Source: Mytilus edulis (Eukaryota). From it: 64,000 bases of DNA. The stretch spans positions 22,940,001 through 23,004,000 of the forward strand of contig NC_092354.1 of assembly GCF_963676685.1 (NCBI RefSeq), written 5' to 3'. The notes below the pieces were generated by a model, which worked only from the letters and a program-made list of their open reading frames with translations, had not been told where the DNA came from and did not search any database. Shown one piece after another: positions 10,406-62,379 of this stretch. The first letter of the stretch is position 1. Each line of letters starts with the position of its first letter. A program made the translations under genes and the position numbers.

Positions 10406-11525
10406 AGTTATGCGGAACTGACAATTCTTAATGAAATCGTGTGATATACCTGGCATGACAATTATACTTTGTACGTCACACGTTAAAATAATAAAATGTG
10501 TCATTTATGGTATGGAGAGGTGCAATTAGGTAAACGGACAGAAAGTCACAGGACATCTCACATGGCAGGATTTTTAAAAGATCCAGTAGTTCTTAAAAAG
10601 TTTAAGGAGGTGGCACTGGAAAGAACAGTCAATTGTCATACTGCCTCAGATATATATGATACTTGGCACTTATGTTATATTGTTATACCTAAGCTATTTT
10701 TTTTTATATTTGAATGGTTTCTCTGCCTGTAGGAGAACACATAGTAAATAATATTTAGTGTTGCTTTTTGTTGTTAGTGTGATGAATTGTGATATTAAGA
10801 ATACTGTATAATAACTTCATATATTGTATGTAACCTTTAATCTTTGTCATTATTTTTAAATAACACAACCAACATTTGGTTGAACCTTTTTTATACTATA
10901 ATCCTGATAACAGTTTACTATTTTGTTGTGCCCTTTAAGAAACTGCAGCTGAACCTGAACCTTTTGAAATGCCGTACAGCAAACCGAATTCGTATACCTG
11001 TGATGTAGGTGTTTTTCTGCTGCCAGTTTCATTGGCAAGAGTGGGAATAAAAGATATTAATTAAGATAACATTTTAAGAGCAAAAATAACCTGAAGAATT
11101 GAATCACTTTCCACAAACAGGGACTATCTAATTTTAGGAAGCTGAATTCCTTTTACTATGTTTACCCTTCAATTTCTTTGCCAATTCTTGAGTAAGATTG
11201 GTGCTAGTTGGAGAGGTAGCCAATCAGCAAAACTGGTCAATCTGGAGCTAATTCCAAGTGTTAGATTTCATTTTTGTTTGTCTACGCATTTAGGCAGTAG
11301 CCATCAAAATAAAGCAACACAATTATTTTGTTATAATAAAACATGCAACCACGCATCCCATATTGCTGATAGGACCCGACACAAACATCAATTTCGTGTT
11401 TCAGTAGTTAAGCTTGGGATGGTCATTTTAAGATGCGTTATTTGAATATAATCAAATATGAAAATTATTCATGTTTATATTGATATATTTATATTTTAAA
11501 TTCTTCTTCAATATTAGGCATAGAC

Positions 11526-13094
11526 TTGTTAAATACATCTGAAGCTCAATTAAACATTTCAAAAGCCTTACTCATTATGCCAGATGAAACTGTAATAAAA
11601 TTAAAGAAAATACAAAGCAATAGTTGCGCTTTAATTAGATTAAAAGAAAGAATGTTAGTACCCGCTAATACTGAAACAGCTTTCAAAATTACAGTTCCAA
11701 CAAATATGAGGGAAAATAACATGTTAAAAGAACCTAATGCACATCTAGGAAAGCAAGGAATTTTAATATCCAATGCATTAGTAAATGCCAAAGATAATAA
11801 AGTTGTCATTTCTGCCCTTAATTGTACAGATTGGGATATAACACTGAAAAAAATAAAAGTGGTAGGAAATATTCAGTTTGTTAGTAAAATTTCTGAGTCT
11901 TTAGGGTGTAACAAATCAGATACTGAGGATTTAAAATGTATGCTTGAAAAGGTGTCCTCTAAACTTTCGAAAGAACAAAAAGAGAAAATAAAAAGGCTAA
12001 TTTTTAATTTTCAAGATATTTTTCTGGGACCCGAAGGGAAATTAGGTCGCACTGAACTTGTGAAACATACTATTGACACTGGTGATGCCAGGCCCATTAG
12101 AATTCCTCCGAGGAGAGTTGCTTTGGCTCAAAAAGACATTATAAGTCAGGAAATTGAAAAAATGTTAAAAGATGACATTATAGAGCCCAGCAATAGTCCA
12201 TGGAGTTCCCCTGTCTTGCTCTGTAAGAAAAAGGACCAGTCTTGGAGGTTCTGCATTGACTATAGAGGCCTTAACCTCTTGACCCGCAAGGATGCCTACC
12301 CTTTGCCCCGTATTGATACTTCTTTAGATTCATTGGGAGGAAATAAATGGTTTAGTACGATCGACCTAGCTTCCGGTTACTGGCAATGTTTAGTAGATGA
12401 AAAAGATAGACCAAAAACAGCCTTTTCTTGTCATCGTGGATTATTTCAATTTAAAGTAATGCCTTTTGGCCTGTGCAATGCACCTAGCTGTTTTGAGAGA
12501 CTTATGGAAATTGTATTACAAGGTTATCAGTGGGAAAGATGTTTATGTTATTTAGACGATGTTATCATTTTTGGACCTACTTTTGAAAAAGCACTTGAAA
12601 ATGTGGAATTTGTTTTTGAAAGATTTAGGCAAGCAAATTTAAAATTAAAACCCAAAAAGTGTTCTTTATTTCAACATCAAGTTTTATTTTTGGGACATTT
12701 AATTACGGACGAAGGCATTGCTTGTGATCCCTCAAAAATTGAAGCTGTACGTGATTGGCCTACCCCTAAAAATATCAATGAGGTTCGTAGCTTCTTAGGA
12801 CTAGCAGGATATTACAGACGTTTTATTCCTGAATTTTCGGAAATTGCCTCTACTCTCACTCATTTAACTAAAAAGGGGATACGGTTTGAATGGACCACAC
12901 AGTGTCAAGAGTCTTTTGAATGTCTAAAAGGCAAATTAATATCTGCTCCTATTTTAAATTATCCCTCAGAAACTGGTCAGTTTATTTTAGATACTGACGC
13001 CAGTGGACATGCCATTGGTGCAGTTCTTTCACAAATCCAAAATGGCGAAGAAAAAGTTCTTGCCTATGCCAGTAAAATGTTAAGTGACACCCAG
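11526..13094 (+). CDS. pol: Gypsy pol part 1: post-protease linker, reverse transcriptase, RNase H start
   Basis: SPWSSP, RFCIDYR, DAYPLP, DLASGYWQ, MPFGLCNAP, YLDD, FLGLAGYYRRFI, DTDAS; the last 30 aa of the listed ORF read into the HINE. Confidence 0.95.
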
Positions 13095-13868
13095 AACAAG
13101 AGGCTGTCACAACGACAGCAAACCGGATTTATTAATATTTATTTGTGTCCTGGCAATATCACAAGAACCATTACTGATGAATGGTGAAAGTGAAAATCGT
13201 CAATATCAAATTTGACCTCCATTTTGTCATCAGTATCAACATCTTAAAATTTGAAAAGCTTAGATTGAATGGTTCATTAGTAAATGCAACAACTTGAATG
13301 GAAACGCCATTTCACAATCTTTCAAGAACCATAACTCCTGAACAGTAAAAGTCAAAATCGTCATAATTGAACTTGACTTTTAATTTGCCATCAGTAACAA
13401 CATATAAAAATTTCAAAAGCTTTGGTTGAATGGTTCATGAGAAAATGCACGGACACGACTGGAAACACCATTTTTCAATCTTTCAAGAACCATAACTCCT
13501 GAACGGTAAAAGTCAAAATCGTCATTATTGAACTTGACCTCCATTTTGTCATCAGTAACAACATATTAAAATTTGGGAAGCTTAGGTAGAACAGTTCATG
13601 GGTAAATGCACGGACACGACTGTAAACTCCATTTTTCAATCTTTCAAGAACCATAACTCCTGAACGGTAAAAGTCAAAATCGCCATTATTGAACTTGACC
13701 TTCATTTAGTTGTCAGTAACAACATATTAAAAATTTAAAAGCTTTGGTTGAACGGTTCATGAGTTAATGCACGGACAACATTTGATTCCCAAACCGCCCG
13801 CCCGACCGACCGCCCGCCGTACATCCCCAAATCAATAACCGACATTTTTGTCACAAAAATCCGGTTAA
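13095..13868 (-). mobile_element. HINE family 1 inserted in Gypsy RNase H
   Basis: Hairpin GCTGTC-ACAAC-GACAGC, subTIRs AACCGGATTT / AAATCCGGTT, (CCGC)n microsatellite, 161-bp internal repeats; removal restores ...DTQKNYCTT. Confidence 0.92.
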
Positions 13869-15696
13869 AAACTATTGTACTACTTACGGGGAACTTTTGG
13901 CAGTATTAACCTTTGTGAAACATTTTAGACACTATCTGATAGGTCAAAATTTTAAAATAAGGAGTGATCATGCTTCCTTAAGATGGCTTAAGAATTTTAA
14001 AAATCCAGAGGGGATGGTGGCCCGTTGGATATCTGTTTTAGAATCCTATAATTTTATTATAGAACACAGAAAAGGCAGTCAACATACAAATGCTGATGCC
14101 TTATCTAGGAAACCATATCGACTTTGTAAAAGGGACGATTGTCCCGGATGTGATAAAGATAAAGATTGTGTAAAAGTTAACCCTTTAATGGCTGAAAATG
14201 ATCAGGATTTAGACAATACAATTCCGTATGAGGATAATTTAGAACAAAATGAAACAATACCCCATACTGAGGAGTCTGATGATATTAATGAAAGTCTAGA
14301 TTTTTCAAATTGGTTGAGAATATGGTCTAATGAAGAAATTAAATCATGGCAAGAAAAGGATTCAGATTTAATTAAAATAATTCAATTAAAAACTCAGTCT
14401 GATGAAAAACCTAGTCGTGAACAAGTGTCTGGTTCTACATATGAAATTAGGAAACTATGGAGTGGCTGGGAATTGCTAGAAATAGTAAATGGAATTTTGT
14501 ATAAACAATATGAAAAATCTAGTATAAATAGTCTGGTATTAGTAGTCCCCAAAGAATTAAGAGTTAAAATCATGAGGGAACTTCATAACAATAGAATAGC
14601 TGGTCATTTAGGTAGACACAGAACGTTAGAGTCCATTAGGCGAAGGTTCTATTGGCCTGGTATGTCTTCAGATGTAGGCTCATGGGTTAAGGAGTGTTCT
14701 ATTTGTGCCCGAGCAAAACGAGGTCCTGGGTTAGGTCGTTATCCACTTCAGCAATCTCAAGTTGGATTTCCTCTTGATAGAATAGGCATTGACATTGTTG
14801 GTCCTTGTCCTATAACAGAAAATGGAAATGAATATATAATAGTTGTTTCTGATTATTTTACTAAATGGTGTGAAGCATATGCCGTACCTAATCATCACGC
14901 ACTTACAGTGGCAGATAAACTAGTCCCTGAATTTTTCACTAGGTTTGGGATGCCAAAACAAATACATTCTGATCAGGGGAGAGAATTTGAATCTCTATTA
15001 TTTCAAGCTGTTTGTCAACTTTTAGGTATTGAGAAAACTAGAACAACCCCCTATAGACCCCAAAGTGATGGTTTAGTTGAGAGATTTAATAAAACTCTGC
15101 AAATCATGTTATCCTCCTTTGTTAATAAAAACAGGAATGATTGGGATGACCATTTACCCTATCTTCTCATGGCATATAGAGCAAGTGAGCATGATAGCAC
15201 AGGGGTTACCCCTTATAAAATGATGTTTGGACGGGAAATGGCCTATCCTTTAGATATCTTAGCAGGTAACCCAAAGTCTCGAGAAAATTTATGTCCTATT
15301 GAGTACGTTAGTTGGCTAAAACATAGTTTTGATATAACTTTTAATTTTGCAAAAGATAATTTGTCAAAAGCTGCCACTAGACAGAAAAATACTTATGATA
15401 GGGGCATTAAACCTAGAAACTATGAAATAGGAGATTTTGTGTGGAGATGGTATCCTCCTACTGCTCACATTAAATTGGGTTTAGGATGGATTGGGCCTTA
15501 TAAAGTTCTTCATAAATTTTCTGAAGTGACTTATAAAATTAAAGAGAACCCAAACAGTAGGGAAATAATAGTCCATGTAGATCACCTAAAACCTTATCTA
15601 GATAATACTATTTTTACAACCCCAATACCCCCTAGACAATCCAGGTGTGGTCGAGCCATTAAGAAGCCATTAAGGTACTCCCCAGATGTAATATAG
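13867..15696 (+). CDS. pol: Gypsy pol part 2: RNase H end and integrase (HHCC, DDE, GPY)
   Basis: YCTTYGELLAV, RSDH, NADALSR, H..AGHLG..CSIC, IGIDIVGP, HSDQG, GLVER, WIGPYKV. Confidence 0.95.
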   Translation, partial: KNYCTTYGELLAVLTFVKHFRHYLIGQNFKIRSDHASLRWLKNFKNPEGMVARWISVLESYNFIIEHRKGSQHTNADALSRKPYRLCKRDDCPGCDKDKDCVKVNPLMAENDQDLDNTIPYEDNLEQNETIPHTEESDDINESLDFSNWLRIWSNEEIKSWQEKDSDLIKIIQLKTQSDEKPSREQVSGSTYEIRKLWSGWELLEIVNGILYKQYEKSSINSLVLVVPKELRVKIMRELHNNRIAGHLGRHRTLESIRRRFYWPGMSSDVGSWVKECSICARAKRGPGLGRYPLQQSQVGFPLDRIGIDIVGPCPITENGNEYIIVVSDYFTKWCEAYAVPNHHALTVADKLVPEFFTRFGMPKQIHSDQGREFESLLFQAVCQLLGIEKTRTTPYRPQSDGLVERFNKTLQIMLSSFVNKNRNDWDDHLPYLLMAYRASEHDSTGVTPYKMMFGREMAYPLDILAGNPKSRENLCPIEYVSWLKHSFDITFNFAKDNLSKAATRQKNTYDRGIKPRNYEIGDFVWRWYPPTAHIKLGLGWIGPYKVLHKFSEVTYKIKENPNSREIIVHVDHLKPYLDNTIFTTPIPPRQSRCGRAIKKPLRYSPDVI

Positions 15697-41010: not shown

Positions 41011-41054
41011 GTTTTTGGATTTATTTAAAAATTGCCAAATTTTCCTGTAATTTG

Positions 41055-41662
41055 TACCTATTTTTCGGTATTCATTCTGATGTTACCTTTACTGATAATT
41101 TTTCACATTTTACTGTCAATTTTATTTGTTTATTGTTGTAATGATGTTACATTCTATCGGTCATTTGATCAAGATAATTTTTCAATATGTATTGACAATA
41201 GTATTAGAAGTTAACAGCTTAATTTGAACCAACCACAGCTTTATTTAAAAAGTGCAACATTTTTCTGTAAATTTTGCCACTTTTTGGATGATTCAGAAAT
41301 TACCTTCAAGATACTTTTTTCACATTTTACTGTCAATTTGACAATTTTTTTAATTGTAATGATGTAACTTTAAATCGGTCATTTGATCAAGATAATTGTC
41401 TAATAGGCATAGAAAATTGTATTAGAAGTAAACCAACCACAGCTTTATTTAAAAATTGCAACATTTGTCAGTAAATTTTACCTCTTTTTGGATTTTCATT
41501 CTGATGTAACCTTTACTGATAATTTTTTTCACATTTAACTGTCAATTTGACTTTTTTGATAATTGTAATGATATTACATTAAATCGGTCATTTGATCAAG
41601 ATAATTTTGCAATATGTATTGACAATATTATTAGAAGTAATCTTGAACCAACCACAGCTTTT
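41055..41662. repeat. ~213-bp tandem repeat x3
   Basis: TTTCACATTT(T/A)ACTGTCAATTT at ~41101, 41318 and 41527. Confidence 0.85.
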
Positions 41663-41673
41663 TCATTCGGATG

Positions 41674-42083
41674 TTCCACAGACGTTTGAAGCGTGGACTT
41701 CAATATGCTATCAAACTAAAAGCCCATTCAGATAATCCTGCCTACAGCTGTGTTTTTAATCCGATTTATGAAGATATTTTTGCAAAACATGAAAATAAAA
41801 TTCCTCCGTTAGGTATACGTTTAAAACCACATTTAGCTTCTTTTGATTTAAAATCTGTTGCTCAAGTTAAAACTTGCAAATGTCCTCCATGGGAACTTCC
41901 CAAACCAAAAATGATACTTAATCTCCGTGAACACAATAAAAATAAAACAAATCCTCTTTTAATTCAGCAACACTATGCTGAAATTAAAGCCGATTATCTA
42001 GATTTTTCAACTGTCTATACTGATGGATCAAAAGATGGTGATAAAGTTGCATCTGCTGCTGTCTTCAGGGACAGAGCTGCAAC
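41674..42083 (+). mobile_element. I/Nimb-clade LINE internal fragment (RT C-terminus to RNase H start)
   Basis: HRRLK.GLQY..KL....NPAY, PPWELP, VYTDGSKDGDKVASAAVFRDRAAT. Confidence 0.85.
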
Positions 42084-44423
42084 GGGGGCTTTTATAGCTG
42101 ACTTTGTGGTATTGGCTTTGCTTATTGTTGAAGGCCATACGGTGAGCTATATTTGTTAAGGTCTGTGTTATTTTGATCTCTTGTGGACGGTTGTCTCATT
42201 GGCAATCATACCGCATCTTCTTTTTTATATCAATTCAAACGAGAAAATTAACGGCCTTATTTATATAAAAAAAAGGAATGTTTTTCGAATTTTATTAAAA
42301 ATCTTTTATGGGGTTTCTTTATATAAGATACGGACTTGAACTTTGCATTATATGGGGGCACCCATCAGGTATTTCCAACCGTGACCCTCAAAACCAATTG
42401 TTAAACTTTTCTAAAATTGCTCCATTTTTAATCAATTAATGTATTATGGAGCTTCTATTTCGAATTGTTGGTAAAAATATTTTTGATGTTTCTATATCTT
42501 AAATACGGAATTGGTCATAACCTTATATTGGGCGTACCTATTTTATATCCACAACTTCCTTCAGACAAGTGTCATAACTTAATGAATCTTTTTTCAGATT
42601 CCTTATCATTTAATTCGATTGTGTACCTCTTATTTGGTTTTTCGAAAAATCATCTGTTTTTTATTTCCATGATAAGGACTTTTCCACTACCTTATCGGGT
42701 GGTACCCGTTTACTATACGCAACTTTCAAAAACTTACCATAAATTATACTAGTATTAATAAAACTTCCTCATATTCGTTATTAAATGATGCCCCTGTGCA
42801 CCTATAATTTAGTTTTTATGGTAGTTTATTTTATTCCAAAACATGGACTATAGAAGTGGCGGGGTATAATTTCGTTAATTATTTCCTCAATATCCAAAGT
42901 TTTTAAACTAAGTTTTCTCTATCTATTGTTTGTCATTTTAAAAGAGACAGGCTTGATGTCATTTTAAAAGAGACAGGCTTGATGTATGTTATCATCAATT
43001 GGTCAACGGCAGACGGTGTAAATAGTCTTTAAAAATGTAATAGTTAAACAGATAACTGCAACGACACACTAGTACAAAGTCCACAAGCGAATCATGTATT
43101 GCTTTTTATGCATTTGATTATAAGAAAGACTGATGGAAAAAAATATGATTATTTTGCCGTCTACAAAAATCATCAGAAATATTTTTGTATTGTCTGATGA
43201 AAGAAATTACGTTATAGTTCCAGAGACACAATCATAATTTCACATAGACACGTATACACCTTCAAAATGCCGTTGTTTTCATTCAAGGTCGTTAAAAACT
43301 TCCCTTTGTTGTTGTGATTTTTCTTCAAAATCACTACTGGTCATACAGACAAAAAATCGCTACTAGAATACAGTCAGTTTAAGACTGATCGTACAGTAAT
43401 TTATTTTGGGATCCTCAAGGAAAGCATATTTTTTATTTGAAATACGAACATTCTACTAAAATACGATAGGAATATTGAAACAGTATATATTTAACTGTAA
43501 ACTGATGCAAATATTTGCAATAAAGGATAATTTGCTTTGTATTACGAGAGCAAAATTGTCAATCGATTTCACTTTTTTCTATGAAGTTGGTGTGATGCAC
43601 ACGTATATTTTATATTCTACTGCATGTTTTTGTTACAGTTACTCATATTTATGATGCTATACATACACTTAAGATGTGCAGAGCACTTTATAGATATAGG
43701 AGTAAACAAATGATGAGAAAAAGCACAAAAACAAAACCGTTCTGTTAGCCAGTTTGAAATCCTCGCTTCGAAAATCGCGACTTCCGGATAGCGTACAGAA
43801 TAGTATCAACACTGGTTATTGTTTGAATGAAGTGAGTCAATTGGTTGAAGAACAGTTAGTTCTGTAAAATTTGATAGAGGATTTGTAGAAGTATATGTTG
43901 AATTAATGGAAGCTGGTATGTCATTATTGCTCATTATAACAGGTCTTGAGGTAGATGTGTCAACATGCATGTACGAAGACTGCTGACTATTAGTTGACAT
44001 ATGCAAGGGTGACACAAAGTAATGAGAACCCAATGTGAGAGGTGGAAGAAATGATGGAACATAACTATTAGATGCTGAGAATTGCTTTTCATGCTGATTG
44101 CGATAATGATGCAACGGCTCTGCTGTTTAGGGCAAGGGTACTGAACAGGAAACATGGGCATTAACAAGTGGAGTGTAAGTAGGTTGCTGACTAGTAGTTG
44201 CTATGTAAGGAACGGGTGCAGAAGAGGTTACATGTGTGTTAACTAAGCCAGGATAATATTTTCTTGGTGGTATATTCCATAAACGTGTACGAATAGTACT
44301 GCGCACAGTGACCTGGACTGTTTATGCATCCATCACCTACAAATATTAATATAAATGTTGATTTTGTTTTCGATTTCTCTTATTTATATTGCACTGGTAG
44401 TTAATTAATATTGTTGGTGTAGT

Positions 44424-44553
44424 GAGAGCCTTGGTGTAGTGGTTTGTGCATCGGACTACTATCACAAAGGTTCCTGGTTCGATTCCCGTTCGGGAAGAAA
44501 ATTTCAGGAACTCGATTTTTGGCTCTCCCTTGACACCATTTGCGAGTATGGTC
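44424..44553 (+). mobile_element. SINE family B, 3'-truncated (tRNA head only)
   Basis: Near-identical to 19770-19900. Confidence 0.88.
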
Positions 44554-44579
44554 TACCTTTTAAATGCAACGATATCATC

Positions 44580-44907
44580 ACTGAAGTATGAAGTATGGCA
44601 TGTCAGATTGTCTGAAAAAACTGCCAGGGTTGATGGTAATCTCTGACATCTTCTGTATACCAACGTTTTTCTTATGCACTGGATACGTGTCAACGTGCTT
44701 CGCTAGTTCCTCTTGTGTGTCAAACCTGTAGTCACACAAGGTGCACCAATATGATCACTGTGTAGCTAGTAAATTTTCTTTCCTTATGTGGTTGACCACA
44801 TATTTGTAGGAGTTTATTACTGGTTTGCTCGTCTGGCACCTAACACACCCATAGGCATTCCCCCTCTTTGAAACCGGTGCTTTAGCATTCAGGATATTTG
44901 AAGCCAT
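44580..44907 (-). pseudogene. Double atypical C2H2 zinc-finger ORF with an internal stop
   Basis: Acceptor tgtttttcag directly before ATG; YGCVRC...NHIRKEN..*SYWCTLCDYRFDTQEELAKHVDTYPVH. Confidence 0.5.
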
Positions 44908-46692
44908 CTGAAAAACATAAGTTACCAACAATCAATCAATCATTTTTCGTCCATGTGACTGTGTGTATTCATTAATGGCCTAGTCCGGATATCTTCATTA
45001 CATCTACTTACACATCTCTCATGTAATAATTGTTGACCCTCTGCTTCTAAAGGTGTTCTTGTCTTGAGCCTCTCAGTACTATACATCCAGATTCTTCTGT
45101 AATTGTTTGGAGACCTCCTGCCGCTATTGAACTGTTGCTTAATTCCACTAGTACTGTCATGACAGTCCCGTTTATAGGTGTTGATATTTCACGTCTATAA
45201 ATAGCGTTGTCCGACCTTGCTGTGAAATCTTTAAGTTGCCGGTTTTCTCTTTATCGGCATTTTCTTCATGACCCTCATTCCTTCTTTCCAGGATATTTGC
45301 CGTAGGTTGATTGATTTCTTCATCAGCATAATCCTCGTCTTTATGGTTCACATATCTCCATTTCTGAAATGTATCTTTATCTTTTTGTAACCCTTGCTGG
45401 CTTTTTTTTTACCCTTGCTGGCTTTTGTTTTCCCGTGTTTTCGTAATTCATGCACGTTTAACAATAGAATTTCTTTCTATCTTTTCTTCAAAACCGATTC
45501 GTTTTTTTTTAATTAACTTGAGAAAATCATGTTCACGTAAACTAATAATTCTACTTCTAAAAGTTTGAATCTAAAACATTAAAAATTCAAAATCGCTTGA
45601 AAATTTATAACAGTACAGTTCACTAAATTTTATTCATCAGGCTGTATAGTTCGATCTCACGAAATAACTCGCAAGTTTAATAAACGAAGCTATATCGCAC
45701 CGCCAGCCACCACTCTATATGTCACGGGTTGGGTAGCATGTACGTGACACATTTAACTCTACTAATAAAAACGAGGTTGTTGTTCATGGGATTGGGAAAA
45801 TATACGTTAATCAAATCGAGAAATAATGTAATACATGTATACAATCAATGATTTATTGAAATTGTTGCTATTTTTTATTACAGGATTTCCAAGTGTTACA
45901 ATAAAGTTAATTTGTTCTTTAGTTGTCTTTTTCTTTACTTTAACTTCATCAACCAAACTTTTTGTCTTCTGTGTACGCTTAAACGTGTAACATGAAAATA
46001 ATGCCAGATTTATATAAATTTCATACTTTTGATTTATATTAAATGTAAATTTACAGAACATCACGTGTACTACTAATGAAAAGTTCGATCATGTTAGTAC
46101 AAATAGGTTTTAAGTTACCGCTGTTAGTTACCAACTATCACAGTAAGGTATCAAACACCGCAGTTACAATACCAAATTTATGTACAGAAAATTTCAAGTT
46201 TGAGAAGAGAAGTTGCGTATGTTTTGCACAGAATGTTCCAGATTTATATCTAATTCAATACTACCTACACATGTACCAGAAAATCATGCTTTTACACACA
46301 CCCACTCACACACAATTAGAGAACATCTATGTAACATTTAAATAATAGAATGCATTTACAAAACAATGCTATACAACAAATTATGAATAAATTAACAACA
46401 AATTAGCCCTTTAAAGAGATGTGTGGCATTAATTGTTTCAAATGTTTTCTTTTATACAAATTAAAGTTGAGACCTTTTGTTTCGATCATTAAAACTAAGT
46501 ATATAATTGTACATCTACATGCCGAAGAAAATCTAATAAAATATATCTCAATCAATAATAACAATGACACATTTTTTAAGCGTATCAACTGTGAATGAAA
46601 TTGCAGTAAATTGCAAATAAAATGTAACATATTCTATAATTGAACACGGATCAGTGTCTATACTAAGTATAATTGCTGCAACCAACATAAAA

Positions 46693-47500
46693 CTAACTGC
46701 TGTCCATCGTATGATCGAGGCTAAAACACTTATTGTGGAACCATAATTCACATCGGTCGCACTTTATCATGTCACTGAATACCTCTGGCATGTTACAAAT
46801 GCAGTGCAGCCTCAGTTGGATATCTTTGCATCCTACATTAGACCGAAGTTTATGTGCAATTTGCGGAAAAGATGTAATATCGCCTTTCCCAAAAGAGCGC
46901 AACAAGTGAGAGCGAATTTGGCTTAGATTGAAGTTAGCAGAAAGGACACCTTGGTGTCCCTTTTCACAAACTCTACCAAGAATGCAATACACATTACACC
47001 ACAATCAACACTGTTTCTTTGCTGCTGAATAAATGGCATGTTAATATTGAGTAGATTATCCGTGTGACCGTATACCGCTGCAAGTTGTATTTGCAAGGAT
47101 TGCGATAAGGCCTCGCGTGCACTTCGCATGCTGTCAATAAGGTATAACGATTGACTGTCAACTGACTTGTATGACAAGACCCAATGACCTTTTCCTGTGT
47201 GGCGTATTTGAGCTGATGGTGGATATGCATGTTGGAACTTTTTTTCTTCGTAATAATGCCATATGTTGGCTTTTTCTTCGAAGTACGGAGCAAGGACGGT
47301 TGCCTCAAGACCATCCATTCCCACATACTTGTCATCGATCAGTTTCAGTGCATTGTTCATAACATCAGATTTTAGGCTTTGTCCATAATTAAGATCACCA
47401 AAATCATCAGTTTGGATAAAGAAATCGGTGGGTGGACACCAGAGTGGAGATGAGGCAGGGCTTTGGTGGAAGCGTTCTTCAGTGCTTTCTGACATTATCT
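46693..47500 (-). pseudogene. Ulp1/C48 SUMO-protease domain + C-terminal PHD finger, frameshifted
   Basis: HWVL (His), IDSM (Asp), QQRNSVDCG (Gln/Cys); CIC...MIKCDRCELWFHNKC. Confidence 0.8.
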
Positions 47501-47689
47501 CTTCTATTTTCTCTGCCGATTCTGTTGTTTTTCGTTAAGGTGTTGGGTGGAAAGAGGGCAGAGTGAGTGTGACCCTCTTTCTTCTTTTTCTTTCAATCTG
47601 TTTTGATCCAAACTTTGGCGAAACTGATGCTTCGGGAACAGGTGGTAACGTATCATTAGTTTCTTTGATCTTTATATACATTGTCAGAA

Positions 47690-48215
47690 CATAAGGATTT
47701 TGTATATATGGCACATCCGTAAAAGGGAGGACCATTTTGACTTGTGCTATCATATCTTATCATATTGAAACCTGAAATAATGTAGGTTTGATCATCATCA
47801 CTTCCTTGCAAGCGTGTCTCTGATAATGCAATAACATCTGCTTCTAATATATTTTATTCTTTACGAAGCTCATCAATATGTAAGTGTAAAGATCTGGTAT
47901 TATGGAAGACAATAGTGAGTTTGGATATACTATTGCTAATGATATTCTGTCAGACTTAATTGAGCATCTTCTCTCATTCTTTCCATTTCGAATATGACTT
48001 CTGGACTAACAGCTAATTTCTCTTCATTAAGTGCAAGAATATTTAACCCAGACATATTTTTTTTGCTCTGCTTATACCGACTTAATGCATGTGCTGATTT
48101 CGTCTGCTTCCAAAGTGGACTGCAACAGTTTCAAGAGTTGAACCCTGTGATTTGTGAATGGTTTTAGCTGTTGACAGTCTTATCGGAAACTGTCTCCTTA
48201 GAAATGTGTATTCCT
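47690..48215 (-). mobile_element. Helentron (Helitron2) RepHel remnant: PIF1 helicase C-terminus fused to APE endonuclease
   Basis: RRQFPIRLSTAKTIHKSQGSTL, VGISRAK (PIF1 motifs V/VI) then FHNTRSLHLHI, ADVIALSET, GF..IRYD, YGCAIYTK. Confidence 0.85.
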
Positions 48216-48983
48216 GATTGTTGACTACACAACATTTCCATGAAATCTCAAATATAGGAGTACATTCTGTTGATATGCCGCAGAGGTCGACTTGGGGCTA
48301 GTATGGACACAACATTCAAACTGAATACAGCTCTGAATTTGGATTGTGATTAAATATAGTTGACACAGCAATGGTTTCTGACACAATGAATGTGGTCTAA
48401 TGAACTTAATTTTAGTTGTTGCTTTTAAGCAATTCAGTATGCTGTTGAATATCAATCCTTTGATATTTGAAGAAATTTTCTTTTTCATTTCTGAGATCTC
48501 AGGTGCTCCGGAAGGGTAAGCAGATTCTGATCCACATAAAATGTTTTGGAGTTAAGCATGACGTCCATTTTCACTGTCAAACTAGTTCACATTTACGTTT
48601 AGGGGCAATCTGGAGACCTCCTCCGGGTGCATGTTTTTATGATGACCCATTGGTGGTCTTTATCTGTTTTCTGCATTTTGTAGGGTTGTTGTCTCTTTGA
48701 CACATTCCCCATTTCCATTCTCAATTACATTTGTAAAGTTTTGTCAAATAACTAATTAAAATGATGATACGCAGCTTTTTATCTCACCCAATAGAGAATT
48801 AAGAAAGTTCAGGCTCCAATTATGCATGCTTTTAACTCGATTTGTATGCTTGGTTCAGTGTACAGAATTATTGTGAGAAGAACATACGTTTAGTTTGTCT
48901 TTAAGCAACTGTGTTTGTACTTAATTAAATAGTGAATTATTCAACTCTTAAGATCGTGGGAAAACTGGTAAACCAAATATAAC

Positions 48984-49086
48984 TTTGTAAAGTTTGGCGC
49001 GTTCTTCGTAAGGTATCTGTTTGAGTGTACGAGTTCACGACAACAGCAAATGTGCTTGTAAATAGAAACAATGAATACAGGTACAT
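48984..49086 (-). CDS. Candidate first coding exon of a secreted precursor (signal peptide + RxxR site)
   Basis: MYLYSLFLFTSTFAVVVNS-YTQTDTLRRTRQTLQ; only a weak donor GTTATA. Confidence 0.35.
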
Positions 49087-49695
49087 TCTTGTGACAGTGT
49101 CAATGTCAAGAGAAGAAGTCGAACTGGTTGCTAAAGTTATTTTCAAGGCGCCTGTTTGCTTGAGTCCTACCCATAAGTCGTGTTAAAGAGAAACACAAAT
49201 GAAAATACTTTAATACAGAAACAAATAATATTGTTGTATCATGAATGTGAAATTACAAATATAATCGCTTATTTAAGTAGAACAAATGTATACAAGGCTA
49301 TTTTTAAATGATTGGTAGTTAGTTATTTGTTTGTATTATGTCCAGTGGCAAATGTTTCATGACTTTATTAATAGGAAACTTCGATGAAAATGGATGTACC
49401 ACCAGAATGATATCGAACTTAGTATTTTCGAATTATTCTTAAATCACATTTTGTCCATTTTTATCGAAGTTTTAAACTAACAAAAGTCCTTTTAACATAA
49501 AAATAATTATCACTGATTGAACAATTTTACTTTATATATCAATAATATAAACTTAAACTCGCCAATTTTCGAGTTTTATTTAAAAATTTAATGCTTCTTT
49601 TTGTAACTTCATATTGGGGTGTACAGTTTTGATTGTATCCGTAACCTCAATACGTGAACATTATTCTGTTTGATGAGAGACTGCCCTGCTGTTGA

Positions 49696-51899
49696 TTGAT
49701 TTATTGATTGTTGGTTGCTTTACGCCGCATTAGCACAAAGAGGCTATATCGCGGCGAGAGCTAATTCAAATATTTTTACAATTTAAAGCATACTTTTAAA
49801 ATAAGACAAAAAGTCCTTCAATATACTAAAATTCTAGACTAAAGCAAAATGATTATATACAAATAAAAATCAACAGTAAAATAACGTGATAAAAATTAAA
49901 AACGATTTAAATATCATAACATTTTCATATTCTATAATAAATTCCAATTTCTTTTAAAAATGCAACAATATTTGTAAATGGAACATTATTGAATAAATCA
50001 TACATATTATTGACATTGAAATGCTTCTTACGAATATCAGCAAAGTCAATACAATTAATTAAAACATGTTTAATAGTATACTTGCAGTTGCAAGGAACAC
50101 ATTGTGGTTCATCTTCATTTTTAACCGGATTTTTGTGACAAAAATGTCGGTTATTGATTTGGGGATGTACGGCGGGCGGCCGGGCGGTCGGGCGGGCGGG
50201 CGGGCGGCAATCAAATGTTGTCCGTGCATTAACTCATGAACCGTTCAACCAAAGCTTTTAAAATTTTAATATGTTATTACTGACAACTATACGAAGGTCA
50301 AGTTCAATAATGGCGATTTTGACTTTTACCGTTCAGGAGTTATGGTTCTTGAAAGGCGGCAATCAAATGTTGTCCGTGCATTAACTCATGAACCGTTCAA
50401 CCAAAGCTTTTAAAATTTTAATATGTTAATACTGACAACTATACGAAGGTCAAGTTCAATAATGGCGATTTTGACTTTTACCGTTCAGGAGTTATGGTTC
50501 TTGAAAGGCGGCAATCAAATGTTGTCCGTGCATTAACTCATGAACCGTTCAACCAAAGCTTTTAAAATTTTAATATGTTATTACTGACAACTATACGGAG
50601 GTCAAGTTCAATAATTGCGATTTTGACTTTTACCGTTCAGGAGTTATGGTTCTTGAAAGATTGAAAAATGGAGTTTTCAGTCGTGTCCGTGCATTTACTC
50701 ATGAACTGTTCTACCAAAGCTTCCCAAATTTTAATATGTTGTTACTGATGACAGAATGGAGGTCAAGTTTAATAATGACGATTTTGACTTTTACCGTTCA
50801 GGAGTTATGGTTCTTGAAAGATTGAAAAATGGAGTTTCCAGTCGTGTCCGTGCATTTATGCATGAACTGTTCTACCAAAGCTTCCGAAATTTTAATATGC
50901 TGTTACTGATGACAAAATGGAGGTCAAGTTCAATAATGACGATTTTGACTTTTACCGTTCAGGAGTTATGGTTCTTGAAAGATTGAAAAATGGTGTTTCC
51001 CGTCGTGTCCATGCATTTTCTCATGAACCATTCAACCAAAGCTTTTGAAATTTTAATATGTTGTTACTGATGACAAAATAGAGGTCAAGTTCCATAATGA
51101 CGATTTTGACTTTTACTGTTCAGGAGTTATGGTTCTTGAAAGATCGTAAAATGGCGTTTCCATTCACGTTGTTGCATTTACTCATAAACCATTCAATCTA
51201 AGCTTTTCAAATATTATTATTTCAAAATGTTGATACTGATGACAAAATAGAGGTCAAATTTGATATTGATGATTTTCACTTTCACCATTCATCAGTAATG
51301 ATATCATCTGATATTGCCAGGACACAAATAAATGTAAATAAATCCGGTTTGCTGTCGTTGTGACAGCCTCTTGTTTAAAAGATACTCGTGTGTTATTCTA
51401 GTATGACCAATACGACATCTAGTAATAACACACTGATCTTTTCTGCACATAATATTATTAAAAGGTTTGCCTAAATTAGGTTTAATTTCATGCAATTTAT
51501 TATCATCTTTTTTACTCCATTTATTTTTCAATATATTGAAAACATATTCTCTAATATTAGATTTAAAATCAGTATATGGTATATCACAGTTAGATAGAGG
51601 GTCACCCAGGGCATTCTTTGCCTCAAGGTCTACAGCTGTGTTTCCAAGGATTCCAACATGACTCGGAACCCATAGAAATATTATTTCTTTCAGAAGAATT
51701 TTTAAATTCCTCATTACATACAAAATTTTGAGAATTGTTGGGTTTTTAATTTTAGTATTTCGTATAGCTTGTAAGCATGAAAGTGAATCCGAACATATAA
51801 TAAATTTTGATTTATCTGAAGAAGCAATAAATTTCAAAGCCAAAATTATTGCTTCTGCTTCAGCAGTAAAGATGGATGCATCAGATGGCAAACGGAGAG
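49696..51899 (-). mobile_element. 5'-truncated I/Nimb-clade LINE (RNase H + CCHC) with TSD, interrupted by HINE-1
   Basis: SIFTAE, SDSLS, WVPSHVGILGN, RCRIGHT, CVPC..TIKHVLINC, stop at 49925; (CAAT)n tail; 13-bp TSD GCCCTGCTGTTGA at 49683-49695 and 51900-51912. Confidence 0.93.
50121..51375 (+). mobile_element. HINE family 1, second copy with expanded internal array
   Basis: Same termini as 13095-13868; removal restores HEYLL-KNEDEPQC. Confidence 0.93.
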
Positions 51900-53039
51900 G
51901 CCCTGCTGTTGACATTTCCTCTTTAGTATTATCTGTTTCTGTAATAAACTCAACAGAAAGAGTTACTGTAGTTCAAATAACTCGTCAACTGAACGATACT
52001 ACGAATCAGTGTCAAATGAGTGTCGGAATTAGGGCAGGAGGGAAGGAGGTATATTTGCATCCATTTGCCCTATGGTTTGTACTTTTTGTCCATTACTCCC
52101 TCCATAATATTACTATTTTAGCACCTCATTTTTGGCCCATTTTTCTATTATTTATACTTTGGCCATTATTCTCTTGTTCTGTAAACCTCAATTCACACAG
52201 ACCAATGGGAAATGGGTTGTCGGACCAATGGGTAATCGGGGGTGTCGGACCAATGGATAACAACTGGATAAAAACGTGTTAATGACGTTGTGTTGTAAAA
52301 GCAATATAAAGCTTCTCAATGATCAAAATTGGTGTTTGTCAAACTGCTATATAACCAGTGTAATTTTTCTGACAAAACGGTTGGTTCAAAATTTTTCAAA
52401 TTTTTATAGTTTTGTTAAAGGGTCAAAGTAAATACTTTGACAAAATTTTATGAAAATTAAACGAGCCAAATTAATTTTAGTGAAATAGGTGGGTACCACC
52501 TTAAAGTGAGTCCAACAATTATTTCATGATCTATCTTTATATCTGAATATCGGACCCATTTGCTTAATTTATAAATGTGACAATTTTTAAAATTTCCCTT
52601 ACATATATACTGTACTGTCATAGATATAAGAAGATAGGGTGTGTTCCATTCAATAACAATTTATAAAACTCAACCATTATAACCCCATGTCAAACACTCC
52701 AACCTAGAGGGCCAGTTCATTTGTAGTCCAGGTTTCCATCCTCTAGAAGGGCTGCTGTCGTGAGCTTTTGAATCCATTCTATCCAGGTTTGTTTTCGAAG
52801 TTTACCATCTCCTAGATTAGTTGCCTTACTAGGCTACGACTCTCATCTAACCGCCTATTTACCTATAGCTGAACAAGGTTGATGAGTGCTAGGGTATGTC
52901 CACACAACTGTGGGTCTACACACTGCATCTCTAGGGCCCTTGCTGCTCCGAGATCTCCTGCAGTTTAGCCTGAGGTACTAAGACCCCAGTTTACGTGCAC
53001 TATCGCGGGAGTCTTGATAGTGTAGAAGCTATGTACTGG

Positions 53040-58038: not shown

Positions 58039-60320
58039 GCACTATACCACTTTTTCATAGAGAGGGTGGAAAAAAACTTCAAAATGTATAATAGACGTGC
58101 AGTTACATTTATTGGTGTAACTCACCATGCTAACAGATGACCCAGAGTCAGTAATGTGTTTATGCATACATTGTAAAGGTTTATTTGTTTCAAAAGATGA
58201 ATGTACAAAATATTTACTTTAGGTAAAGAACTAAAATCCCCTGTTGAAAAAGCAAAAGAAAAAAGGAAAGAAATAAAAAAAATATATGGTGAACTACAAG
58301 CCTTGAAAATCATTGCTAAAAGTAGGAGATATCATAGTGGAGGAATATGTCGATACCACTAAAGGCATCTCAGAAGAGGACAGAGATGATTTAACAGCGT
58401 ATCTGTGCACTTTCGAGGAATTAAATTTTACTTTCTTGGATATACTATCAATGGTGCATGACACAATTTCCTTTATTATTCATCACTCAGACTCAGATAG
58501 AAAAGGTACAACTCCAGTTTATATTGTAAACTTTAATATACAAATGTCCTTGTGTAACAAACAACATATCTTATCAAAATTCTTAATCAATTACATGAAC
58601 AACTTTGTTAATTGTCAAGCCTGCAACTTTTGTCGCAGAAAGATGACAGATAGTGATCTGGCAGTGGCAGCTGTTTTAACTAACTTCTACAAATGCTTTT
58701 ATTTAGAAGGTTGAAGACCTGATTGCTTTATATACTTTGTATATAGCCGGTGCCGTATGTTTTCGTCTGTCACATGTCCATAGTTCCGGACCTCATTTTT
58801 TGTGGTTCAGTCACTACTTGAAAGAAAAGTCAGAAATTTATTATGTTAATTTCTCTCTTATTATTAGTAAAACTATATTTCAAGGTCCTCATTCCCCTCA
58901 GACAGATTTCACTCGATGTCAACCTCAATGATCAGTGTCATCAGAAATTGACCTCATTTTCATGGTTCAGTAGTTATAGTTACGTTTTTTTGTGTCTGTT
59001 TTTCTTTCACCTTTTGCACAAGGGGTATATTTGGTGCATGGGCTGATTGTAAGGTGTACATGTTCATCTGGCAGGTGTCTTCTGACCTTTGCCTAATTTT
59101 CAAAGATCAGTGGTTACAGTTATTTTTTTTAGATTTTTTTTTATACTATATTTAAAATGTCAACTATGTTTGGTGTATTGAAATATCTTATGAACATGCC
59201 AGTCTTGCAGGTTTTATTTGACTGTGACCTCATTTTCACAGTATTTTTTTTTTTTTTTTATCTATTTTCTTAAACTAAATGCACTAGATTAACTGTATGT
59301 GTTGTACAAAAGGGATGTAAAAGGGTTACCTCATCATCCTGTCACGAATGTAAACAAACCAGGAAAAGTACGGGTAGTTTTTGACTGCGCAGCTAAATAT
59401 CAAAGAATATCACTCAACAGTAAACTCTTACAAGGACCTGATCTCATTAACAGTTTGGTTGGTGTTTTAATTAGATTTAGACAGGAGCAGATAGCCTTAT
59501 CAGCCGACATCGAAGCTATGTTCCATCATGTTCGTGTGCAAGAGGAGGACTGTGATGCCTTGCTTTTTCTAAAGTGGCCTAACGGTGACTTAAACCAGAA
59601 ACCCAGAAGTTATTGCATGCAGGTACATTTGTTTGGTGCTACATCGTCACCAAGTTGTGCAGGATATGCATTAAAACGGACAGCAAGAGATTATTCCCAT
59701 CTTTTTTATCCGGAAGTATCTACTACAGTAGAGACATTTTTTAATGTTGACGATTGTCTGAAGTCTGTGTCATCCGAGCAGGCAGCTATTTAACTCGCTA
59801 TTGACTAAGAGTCACTTATGAAAATGTTACCTTATGGGTGGGTTCCGACTAACACAATTGGTCAGTAATAGTAGAGATGTATTAAAAGCTATACCAGAGT
59901 CTGCACTTGCTCCTGCTGTAGTAAATCTTGGCCCTGGAGATGTGCTGCCGAACGATAAGGCCCTTGGTGTAATTTGGGATGTCAATGAAGATAAAATTAG
60001 GTTAAAGGTAAAATTAACAGATAAACCGTTAACTAGACGTGGTATATTGTCAATTGTAAGTTCAATATTTGATCTGTATTGAAAGTTTGTCTGTGAATCG
60101 CTGTTTTCGACCAGAGGAATTTCAACACATTAAGAACGCTCAATTGCACCTTTTCAACGATGGGATATAACTTGGTTATGGAGCGTGTGCCTATCTGAGA
60201 CTAGTTGATGGCAATGACAAAATTACTTGCTCTTTAATCTTAGAAAGGCACGACTAGCATCAATTAAACAGATGTCAATACCAAGACTTGAATTATCAGG
60301 AGCTGTCACTGCATGCCGCT

Positions 60321-60702
60321 TGCAACAAAATTGGTACCGTTGATTTTATTACTACCACTGGGTCGATGCCTCTGCTGGTGGACTATTAGTCCCCGAGGGT
60401 ATCACCAGCCCAGTAGCCAGTACTTCGGTACTGGCATGAAAATACGGATTTTTTTGTGTAATTAAAATTTGCTGTTACAAAATATTAAAAATTATTATAA
60501 ATTAAGGAATGTATCTCCCTCGTGCACAGCTCTGATTCCTTTCACGAATTTGGCTATACTTTTTGGACCTTTTGGATTATAGCTCTTCATCTTTTATATA
60601 AGCTTTGGATTTCAAATATTTTGGCCACGAGCATCACTGAAGAGACATGTATTGTCGAAATGCGCATCTGGTGCAACAAAATTGGTACCGTTGATTTTAT
60701 TA
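60321..60702 (+). mobile_element. Non-LTR retrozyme insertion (351-nt unit + 31-nt terminal redundancy)
   Basis: Direct repeat TGCAACAAAATTGGTACCGTTGATTTTATTA at 60321-60351 and 60672-60702; removal restores Pao GAVTACRL-YQILNDE. Confidence 0.9.
60631..60674 (+). ncRNA. Minimal type I hammerhead ribozyme (family 2), intact
   Basis: Stem I GCATCA/TGGTGC, CTGAAGA, stem II GACA/TGTC, GAAA, T-GCGC-A, ATC cleavage after 60668. Confidence 0.92.
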
Positions 60703-62379
60703 TACCAAATCCTGAATGATGAACTTGAAATAAAGGTTGATAACGTTACCTTCTGGACAGACTCGATTGTAGTGTTGGGCTACATTAGAAATACATCACG
60801 GCGATTCAAAACCTTTGTAGGTAATAGATTAAGCATAATTCACAATACAACTAGTGTATACCAATGGCGTCACGTATATTCGCCTTCGAATCCCGCGGAC
60901 ATAGCATCAAGAGGAATAGACGCTGTTGATAGTAAGAAACTAAATATATACTTAAATGGTCCAAATTTTCTCTTGGAAGATTCAAAATACTGGCCACAAG
61001 ACTTACGCAATGAGCTACAAGAGGTAACTGAAAATGACACCGAACTTAAGAATGAGGTGGTGATCCATGCTATGACAAACAACACCACTGATTATCTAAT
61101 GAACTATTTCTTCGACTGGACAAAACTACTACGAACAACGGCGTGGTTGATTAGGTTCAAGTTTTATTGCAGACAACGATACCTAAATCATTAAGTTCAG
61201 TGCAGAACTGGTGATCTCACTTTGTCAGAACTGAAAATGGCTACCAATGTAATATCAGTCAATGTACATTCAACTTACTTCAAACACGAAATAATCAAAT
61301 TGAAGAAGGATACGCCCGTGAAAAAAGACAGCCGTATTGCTTCTCTTAATCCTGTACTCGATAATGAGCTTATCCGAGCAAAAGGACGCTTAAGTACCTC
61401 TAACCATGATGAATACCCCATAATCCTTCCCGATAATCATTATGTTACTTCGTTAATTGTTCGTTTCTATCACGAAAATCAGGGTCACGTAGGAAGACAA
61501 CAGGTGCTTGCAGCCACACGTATGAAATACAGGATTTTAAAAGGACCTAGTCTTGTTAAGAAAGTAATCGGATGCTGTATTCCATGTAAACGTCAACACC
61601 GTCCACTCTGCGTACAACAGATGGCACCTCTTCTTGATGAACAGATAACTGCTGAAAACCCCCGTTAACATTTGTCGGAAACGACTATTTTTGGGACCCC
61701 TTTTGGTAAAGTTAGGTCGTTCACACGTAAAAAAGATATGGTTGCCTATTTACATGTCTCACAACCAGAGCAGTGCATCTAGAAGTGGCCCACACCTTAA
61801 CCATGAAGTCATTTTTATCCGCTTTTCAACGCTTTATAAGCCGACGAGGTGTACCAAAAAAGATGTACAGCGATAATGGAACTAATCTTGTAAGCAGAGA
61901 CAGTGAGCTACGTAAATCAATTAAAGAATGGAACCTATCAAAAATTGGAAGACAACAGGAGATAGAATGGCGTTTTAATCCACCTTTAGCAAGTCACATG
62001 GGTGGTTCATAGAAAATTGAAATCGTGATTTTGTCGTCATATGTTTCACCATATTATTGTATTTCATTAAAGGGATCAGAAGTTAAATGGTAGTTCCTGC
62101 GAGAAATTTATGTGATATACATCAAATAACAAAAATATCACATAGTGACTGAATTGCTACTATACAGATCACCACAAAAATAGTTTATGATAAAAAGTTC
62201 TTTATTTTCGGGTTGAAATGAGAGTATGAATCATGTAATTCAAGATGTTCACGATCAAATTCAACTGCAGTCAATAAATAGCCAATTATTTTAATGCAAA
62301 AGAAAGAATTAATCGGTAAGGATTTTTGAAAGCTATCTAATTAGAGTTATGTTCGTCACCGAATTTCCTTATTACTTAA

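What the first reader, a model, noticed from the sequence alone, without database searches (positions are those of the whole stretch)
41674..51912. One LINE RNA apparently split between two sites ~7.6 kb apart, in opposite orientations
The plus piece (41674-42083) stops at ...GCT GCA AC (FRDRAAT). The minus piece starts at 51899 with CT CTC CGT TTG (LRLPSD). Joined over a 1-nt overlap they give an uninterrupted RNase H with normal spacing: YTDGSKDGDKVASAAVFRDRAATLRLPSDASIFTAE. The minus piece has its own perfect 13-bp TSD, which argues against a later inversion. Inference: distal twin priming, in which a second DNA end annealed internally on the same RNA, copied the upstream ~410 nt and blocked the first cDNA, with each end resolved locally.
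Basis: partly seen in the sequence, partly recalled or inferred. Interest (0 to 1): 0.75.

Follow-up and report, generated by a model that had tools for sequence, protein, structure and literature searches.

The report
Two LINE copies meeting at hairpin
Two dead pieces of one jumping-gene family, 10 kb apart and pointing at each other, end and begin at the same base, likely because they are two separate insertions that both stopped at a strong hairpin inside the element, not one RNA split between two sites.

Summary
In intact copies the plus piece (41678-42083) and minus piece (from 51899) abut, sharing one C that may belong to the flank. The 13-bp TSD is real (9 of 9 paralogous empty sites carry it once), so a later inversion is out. 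(1) The shared base lies in a strong hairpin of the RNase H coding region (RNA z -6.1), where other copies also truncate (three independent starts at -3, one at +3). (2) Lineage markers disagree: the plus-piece haplotype occurs in 8 of 45 'CG' copies and 0 of 43 copies of the minus piece's 'TC' group. In a tree test the pair behaves like mismatched pairs, not like 18 split intact copies, but AU does not reject one origin (p 0.18). The plus site is a repaired break (147-bp fold-back, at least 1.17 kb lost). No second case in 30 screened neighbourhoods. Best reading: two independent insertions (0.6, plus 0.14 for a pairing-guided variant). One RNA split: 0.2. The scan found ordinary twin priming on other DNA before; it found no distal split.

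The parts
41020..41677 (+). Left flank: about 210-bp satellite-like tandem array, cut off at the LINE junction; its last 17 bp resemble a later part of the unit
   Evidence: sequence
41678..42083 (+). Plus LINE piece, 406 nt (positions 1501-1906 of copy L004), no tail, no TSD; haplotype of the CG group
42022..42083 (+). 5' arm, loop and first bases of the 3' arm of the internal hairpin (L004 1845-1906)
42083..42083 (+). The shared C: fits the LINE and the flank repeat (1-nt microhomology)
42084..42230 (-). 147-bp segment of transposon E, inverted in place (fold-back); the next 16-17 bp of E are lost
42231..43814 (+). Right 1.58 kb of a 2.9-kb non-autonomous element E with CACAGTG-type terminal inverted repeats; its left 1.17 kb is missing
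48278..49682 (.). Repeat that was the target of the minus insertion (left part); colinear with paralogues across the site
49683..49695 (-). TSD copy at the tail end
49696..50122 (-). Minus LINE piece: end of ORF2, 3' UTR and (CAAT)n tail
50123..51370 (-). 1.25-kb insertion with 152/161-bp internal tandem repeats; the same family sits at 13095-13871
51371..51899 (-). Minus LINE piece, 5' part (L004 1906-2434): rest of RNase H; TC group; starts in the hairpin's 3' arm
51900..51912 (-). TSD copy at the 5' end
51913..52277 (.). Target repeat, right part

Best explanation
The two pieces likely come from two separate insertions of one young I-group LINE family, and they likely meet at the same base because that base lies in a strong hairpin where copying tends to stall and DNA tends to break. 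Shown: the minus piece is a clean target-primed insertion (tail, 13-bp TSD, intact target), 5'-truncated in the 3' arm of a roughly 90-nt hairpin; other copies truncate within a few bases of it. Shown: the plus piece is tail-less and sits in a junction with a 147-bp fold-back inversion and a deletion of at least 1.17 kb. Inferred: reverse transcriptase stalled at the hairpin to give the minus copy. Inferred: a double-strand break beside the plus copy was resected; the right end was hairpin-capped and reopened (the fold-back); the left end was trimmed back to the LINE's own hairpin and joined over 1 nt. A sub-route I cannot separate: the plus piece was a tail-less patch copied from another RNA of the family into that break. 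The match to the exact base is then a coincidence, made a few times likelier by the hairpin.
For: Lineage (137 of 138 de-duplicated loci gave a row): at site 42042, 41 nt before the join, the minus piece's TC group has C in 51 of 54 copies that cover it and the CG group has T in 47 of 50; the plus piece has T. Its four-site haplotype is in 8 of 45 CG copies and 0 of 43 TC copies. Tree of 78 copies: plus piece inside a 43-row clade (SH-aLRT 95), minus piece outside. Calibration: holding the window pieces together costs +8.3 lnL; 18 of 18 intact copies cut at the same base cost at most +0.1; 6 of 8 deliberately mismatched pairs cost +3.3 to +13.1. Hairpin: RNA -62.1 kcal/mol, z -6.1; DNA -23.4, z -5.1; the base pairs with 1869, where two other copies start. 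Independent starts at 1903 (three events with TSDs) and 1909, 1914, 1921, 1923: 4 in 1901-1909 against 0.68 expected (P 0.005). DNA-level breaks in the hairpin: 9 ends of 7 events against 3.2 expected (P 0.006 by ends, 0.046 by events). 3'-broken pieces with an opposite-strand neighbour are common, and none of those over 1 kb apart abuts in 30 neighbourhoods. Fold-back plus deletion matches DSB-end remodelling in bioRxiv 2024.12.14.628481 (section 9 read).
Against: It needs a base-exact coincidence; my rough estimate is 0.2-0.5% per such pair. No other fetched copy starts or breaks at exactly 1906 (contig C1497 ends at 1907). The AU test does not reject a common origin (p 0.18 and 0.19), and the quick tree searches are noisy. 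An earlier nearest-neighbour test was inconclusive: 2 to 6 of 18 intact TC copies looked as discordant as the window pair. Copy L109 is TC, shares a rare base (51721 G) with the minus piece and matches the plus haplotype where it covers it; it failed the coverage filter and is not in the trees. Both pieces have equal end branches. Hotspot counts are hand-picked from a non-random sample with post-hoc windows, and the baseline ignores the natural rise of truncations towards the 3' end. The hairpin window has the lowest energy of 36 windows but not the lowest z.
Confidence: 0.6

Rival explanations
1. One RNA or cDNA split between two sites. Target-primed copying stalled at the hairpin and was closed with a normal TSD. 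The remodelled right end of a nearby double-strand break (3' end ...CCCCCG on the minus strand) then primed on the leftover RNA at that base, or took up the broken-off cDNA, and the 406-nt piece patched the break.
For: Zero-gap, 0-1-nt join. Polarity fits: the flank's 3' end runs into antisense LINE at the shared base. One tail for two pieces. Equal divergence. Canonical twin priming exists in the family (L119). Human precedents of one L1 'sawed in half' with a shared breakpoint (bioRxiv 2024.08.27.596794, section 8 and passages). L109 shows a compatible haplotype can exist.
Against: Lineage mismatch. Only 1 nt of primer match. In human twin priming 66% of joins have a deletion and 17% a duplication. 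In the precedents I read, the pieces bridge rearranged partners; here the TSD is intact on one piece. 0 of 10 other hairpin-truncated copies have an orphan upstream piece within 10 kb.
Confidence: 0.2
2. Two independent copies, but the deletion was steered by pairing between them. A full-length-3' plus copy and the minus copy were inverted repeats whose homology began exactly at the minus copy's first base, so a stalled fork or a flap cut at the stem base would end the plus copy there.
For: Explains the exact base and the lineage mismatch together. Homeology can direct end-joining near direct Alu repeats (PMC4356517, abstract and passages).
Against: Needs a loop of more than 10 kb. That paper has no occurrence of 'inverted'. 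Two other facing pairs break 153 and 212 nt away from the homology boundary.
Confidence: 0.14
3. Assembly or chimeric-read artefact at the plus junction.
For: No listed contig from 8 public runs bridges the junction (tables cut, so weak). The duplicate contig C1387 starts at 43586 and does not cover it.
Against: The plus piece has private bases found nowhere else in the genome. The inverted 147 bp is not duplicated, as a fold-back chimera would leave it. There is only 1 nt of overlap to mis-join on.
Confidence: 0.05
4. One intact insertion broken by a later inversion of 42084-51899.
For: The geometry alone fits.
Against: The TSD flanks only the minus piece, and paralogues are colinear across 48278-52277.
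Confidence: 0.01

Closest known systems
Twin-primed (5'-inverted) L1 insertions (Ostertag and Kazazian 2001; not read, seen as described in PMC4245944 and bioRxiv 2024.08.27.596794)
   Same: Two pieces in opposite orientation, contiguous in the element, one tail.
   Different: There both pieces lie side by side inside one TSD. Here the TSD encloses only the tailed piece and the other lies 7.6 kb from the tail. L119 in this family is the true equivalent.
Single-L1 bridges of reciprocal translocations, inversions and complex events (bioRxiv 2024.08.27.596794, Figs 5f-g, 6d-f as described in text and legends)
   Same: Shared breakpoint, one tail, a tail-less fragment at a second junction, use of pre-existing breaks.
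   Different: There the halves join exchanged partners. Here the target is restored with both TSD copies, it is germline in an invertebrate, and the pieces differ in lineage markers.
DSB-end remodelling beside L1 insertions (bioRxiv 2024.12.14.628481, Fig. 4)
   Same: Short local inversion plus deletion next to a LINE sequence; non-polyadenylated pieces at junctions.
   Different: There the break is the insertion site itself. Here the remodelled end is 7.6 kb from the tailed insertion and may post-date it.
Non-classical, endonuclease-independent L1 insertions (Sen et al. 2007, PMC1920257, abstract only)
   Same: A LINE fragment without signs of target priming, with loss of target DNA.
   Different: Those were checked against ancestral loci. 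Here no pre-insertion allele was seen, so later truncation cannot be told from capture.
Nimb-clade, I-group LINEs (Nimb-2_DR in PMC4245944; bivalve Nimb in PMC11481361; passages)
   Same: RT followed by RNase H, TSD of 10-15 bp, rare 5' inversion (1 Nimb-2_DR insert in that study).
   Different: Clade placement was not tested by phylogeny here.

Membership tests
I-group LINE (Nimb-like) | RT domain followed by RNase H in ORF2 | tested here: met
   Intact copy L093: RVT_1 E 1.4e-31, RNase_H E 1.7e-9
I-group LINE (Nimb-like) | TSD of 10-15 bp and a short-repeat tail | tested here: met
   13-bp TSD and (CAAT)n tail; Nimb-2_DR TSD peak 12-13 bp
I-group LINE (Nimb-like) | C-terminal Cys/His knuckle | tested here: inconclusive
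   A Cys/His pattern is visible at the ORF2 end; the motif is recalled, and Pfam gave no hit
I-group LINE (Nimb-like) | APE endonuclease, ORF1 and RT-tree placement in the Nimb clade | not tested
   Only the last 2.7 kb of the element was examined
Twin priming | Both pieces adjacent inside one TSD | tested here: not met
   TSD encloses only the minus piece
Twin priming | Pieces contiguous in element coordinates, opposite orientation | tested here: met
Twin priming | Microcomplementarity of the internal primer | tested here: inconclusive
   1 nt
Twin priming | Both pieces from one source RNA | tested here: inconclusive
   Markers and calibrated tree lean against; AU p 0.18; inconclusive
Single-L1 'sawed in half' rearrangement | One tail and a shared breakpoint | tested here: met
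Single-L1 'sawed in half' rearrangement | Target-site halves joined to exchanged partners | tested here: not met
   Target colinear with paralogues, both TSD copies in place
Non-classical (endonuclease-independent) insertion | No tail, no TSD, target DNA lost | tested here: met
   Plus piece; at least 1.17 kb of E missing
Non-classical (endonuclease-independent) insertion | Ancestral locus lacks the LINE sequence | not testable with these tools
   No relatives held; public contigs too short

The most novel reading that the evidence does not exclude
One germline LINE RNA was shared between two sites 8-10 kb apart: copying stalled at an internal hairpin and closed as a normal TSD-flanked insertion, while the leftover upstream RNA patched a nearby double-strand break, leaving the DNA between them unrearranged. 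Such tail-less 'orphan' patches would then be by-products of ordinary truncated insertions.
Probability: 0.2. Interest if true: 0.65.

Novelty: new member of a known kind. Interest (0 to 1): 0.3.

Why it matters
On the best reading this is ordinary element decay, with two useful lessons. A shared breakpoint is the usual evidence that two LINE pieces come from one event, and it can mislead where the element has a structural hotspot. And a coding-region hairpin seems to set where this LINE's copies are cut short, which bears on the open question of what causes 5' truncation and can be tested by primer extension. If the one-RNA reading were true, it would show where the uncopied part of a truncated LINE RNA can go, and would extend tumour-type split insertions to an invertebrate germline without a rearrangement at the target.

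Tried and rejected
Later simple inversion: rejected by the TSD and colinear paralogues. Chance TSD: rejected. A copy sharing the plus piece's private bases: the motif occurs only in the window. Nearest-neighbour and rank-correlation lineage test on 58 copies: inconclusive. Public runs: Logan contigs of 8 of the 24 listed runs were laid; repeats swamped the tables and no listed contig bridges either plus junction, which proves nothing. Duplicate contig C1387: does not reach the plus site. A local template for the 17 bp before the plus piece: no second match within 3 edits was printed for the window. The missing left part of E or the rest of the satellite nearby: no E-type left arm above about 89% identity in 464 kb. 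Recurrence screen of 30 neighbourhoods (20 3'-broken copies, 10 hairpin-truncated): abutting pairs over 1 kb apart were all same-strand splits by insertions; the reference covers only the last 2.7 kb of the element. The Fisher value for the four-site haplotype used a wrong cell (43 for 45) and is not quoted. Paper searches listed no TSD-intact insertion with a distal abutting orphan, and no report of this hairpin; I read only the listings and the passages cited, and bioRxiv supplements were closed, which may hide similar cases.
Full report
Setting. The window is G000:C11:22940001-23004000 of a 1.37-Gb genome. Earlier scan notes call the host a mussel; I did not test this. Both pieces belong to a young LINE family: 254 and 385 candidates in the two DNA searches, best hits 98-99% identical. 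An intact copy has RT followed by RNase H, a (CAAT)n tail and TSDs of about 10-15 bp, like I-group, Nimb-type elements (PMC4245944 passages). Clade placement was not tested.

Observation. The plus piece is 41678-42083 and the minus piece starts at 51899. In intact copies both bases map to position 1906 of reference copy L004. The shared C also fits the flank repeat, so the join has 0-1 nt overlap and no gap. The minus piece is about 950 nt of LINE interrupted by a 1.25-kb insertion. Its 13-bp TSD is genuine: 9 of 9 paralogous sites printed carry the 13-mer once, and a paralogue is colinear over 48278-52277.

The plus site. The right flank is part of a 2.9-kb element E with terminal inverted repeats. 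Against intact E copies, 42084-42230 is inverted in place, the next 16-17 bp are lost, and the left 1.17 kb of E is absent. The left flank is a satellite cut mid-unit. There is no tail and no TSD. This is the deletion-plus-short-inversion pattern that bioRxiv 2024.12.14.628481 ascribes to resection, self-annealing and cleavage of a DSB end (section 9 read). So the site is a repaired break, whichever way the LINE piece got there (inference).

The shared base is a hotspot. It lies in the 3' arm of a long hairpin in the RNase H coding sequence: RNA -62.1 kcal/mol, z -6.1; DNA -23.4, z -5.1, 0 of 200 shuffles as good in each. It pairs with position 1869. Among fetched copies, independent 5' ends fall at 1903 (three events with TSDs: L124/L125 counted once, L202, L211), 1909, 1914, 1921, 1923, and at 1867, 1869 twice, 1883 and 1889. 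That is 4 starts in 1901-1909 against 0.68 expected and 13 in 1845-1935 (P 0.005 and 0.02). Deletion, inversion and 3'-break ends also gather there: 9 ends of 7 events against 3.2 expected. These are hand counts on a non-random sample with windows chosen after the fold was seen. No other copy starts or breaks at exactly 1906. A hotspot for starts alone does not raise the chance of a match; only the roughly threefold excess of DNA breaks does.

Lineage. The minus piece carries 51733T and 51730C (TC group). At site 42042, 41 nt upstream of the join, TC copies have C in 51 of 54 and CG copies have T in 47 of 50; the plus piece has T. Its four-site haplotype occurs in 8 of 45 CG copies and 0 of 43 TC copies (137 of 138 loci gave a row, ten duplicates removed). 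In a tree of 78 well-covered copies the plus piece falls in a 43-row CG clade (SH-aLRT 95) and the minus piece outside it; forcing them together costs 7.1 lnL, AU p 0.18. On a 60-copy subset (18 near-identical young copies dropped) the cost is 8.3. All 18 intact copies cut at the same base cost at most 0.1, while 8 mismatched pairs of the same type gave -7.9, -1.1, 3.3, 5.2, 5.3, 9.7, 9.7 and 13.1. Against this: the searches are quick and noisy; an earlier nearest-neighbour test found 2-6 of 18 intact TC copies as discordant; recombinant haplotypes exist; and L109, left out for coverage, is TC, shares 51721G with the minus piece and fits the plus haplotype, though its 3' end groups elsewhere. 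End branches are equal, 0.013 and 0.012. I weigh the lineage evidence at about 3-6 to 1 against one RNA (my estimate).

Base rate. 3'-broken pieces are common. In 30 neighbourhoods of +/-10 kb, opposite-strand pairs over 1 kb apart missed each other by 212 nt or more, and 0 of 10 hairpin-truncated copies had an orphan piece ending at their start. Canonical twin priming does occur: L119 has an inverted 1230-2213 segment joined to 2234-tail, between copies of a 13-bp perfect TSD, one case among roughly 130 copies looked at. My rough arithmetic gives 0.03-0.1 chance matches for this family genome-wide and more over all families. That is comparable to what a distal variant of twin priming would give at one in a thousand insertions or fewer, so prior odds are near even at best and the lineage data tip them.

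Mechanism. Most likely: two insertions; the minus copy truncated by a stall at the hairpin; the plus copy cut back at the same hairpin during repair of a break, or captured as a tail-less patch from another RNA (0.6). A variant in which pairing of the two inverted copies set the break would explain the exact base, but needs a loop over 10 kb and has no support in two other facing pairs (0.14). One RNA split between the insertion site and the break remains possible (0.2). Artefact 0.05; later inversion 0.01.

Known systems. One L1 'sawed in half', with one tail and a shared breakpoint, is described in tumours: 3 of 13 reciprocal translocations, and a complex event in which twin-primed cDNA ends repaired two existing breaks (bioRxiv 2024.08.27.596794, section 8 whole and passages). 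There the pieces bridge exchanged partners; here the target is restored. The plus piece alone resembles non-classical L1 insertions (PMC1920257, abstract). PMC4356517, PMC11481361, PMC7204232 and PMC10830420 were seen as passages. The scan's notes hold 62 findings with the words twin, priming and LINE, the 8 shown all on other genomes, none with all the words for a distal split, and no look-alike of this sequence.

Verdict. A real and tidy coincidence-or-split, more likely ordinary decay at a structural hotspot. Interest 0.3; novelty: new member of a known kind. Haplotype data would settle it.

Noticed in passing
L119 (G000:C8:2835862-2838881), 408-1665: Canonical twin-primed copy of this I-group LINE: inverted 1230-2213 segment joined to 2234-tail with a 20-nt gap, inside a 13-bp perfect TSD (15-16 bp with one homopolymer difference).
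   Followed up: partly
L004 1845-1934 (window 42022-42083 and 51899-51871): Strong hairpin inside the RNase H coding sequence; 5' truncations and deletions cluster there. Whether it has a function in the RNA was not tested.
   Followed up: partly
window 42231-43814; L070 4840-7717: 2.9-kb non-autonomous element with roughly 60-bp inverted termini starting CACAGTG (the RSS heptamer) and a 5-bp TSD in one of two copies checked (the other fits with a 1-bp shift): resembles Transib/RAG-like elements, known from bivalves (PMC7204232 passages). No transposase was sought.
   Followed up: partly
window 50123-51370 and 13095-13871: Two copies, on opposite strands, of an element with 152/161-bp internal tandem repeats; one interrupts the LINE, one an LTR-type pol region. 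Looks like a Helentron-associated non-autonomous element (label recalled, not tested).
   Followed up: no
contig C1387 vs window 43586-64000: A 24-kb contig duplicates the right third of the window at 99.3-99.98%: likely an unpurged haplotig or a very recent duplication.
   Followed up: partly
G000:C11:23163150-23165501 (L196, L197): Another facing pair of this family: a plus fragment ending at 1936 (hairpin base) and a minus copy with an internal inverted match at 1874-1965; they overlap by 153 nt in element coordinates.
   Followed up: partly
L013 (contig C1497 end): A contig ends at element position 1907, one base past the shared base and at a polymorphic site.
   Followed up: no
The family is strongly concentrated on C11 and near 78.7-79.9 Mb of C8; head-to-tail copies occur (L016, L129/L220).
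   Followed up: no
window 46693-47534 (-): Broken ORFs with a weak Ulp1-type peptidase hit (E 0.004, below cut-off) and a PHD finger (E 3e-6), probably a transposon remnant.
   Followed up: no
window 11484-15696 and 59293-61668: Interrupted LTR-retrotransposon pol-like frames (Gypsy-like and BEL/Pao-like by recalled motifs; not scanned).
   Followed up: no
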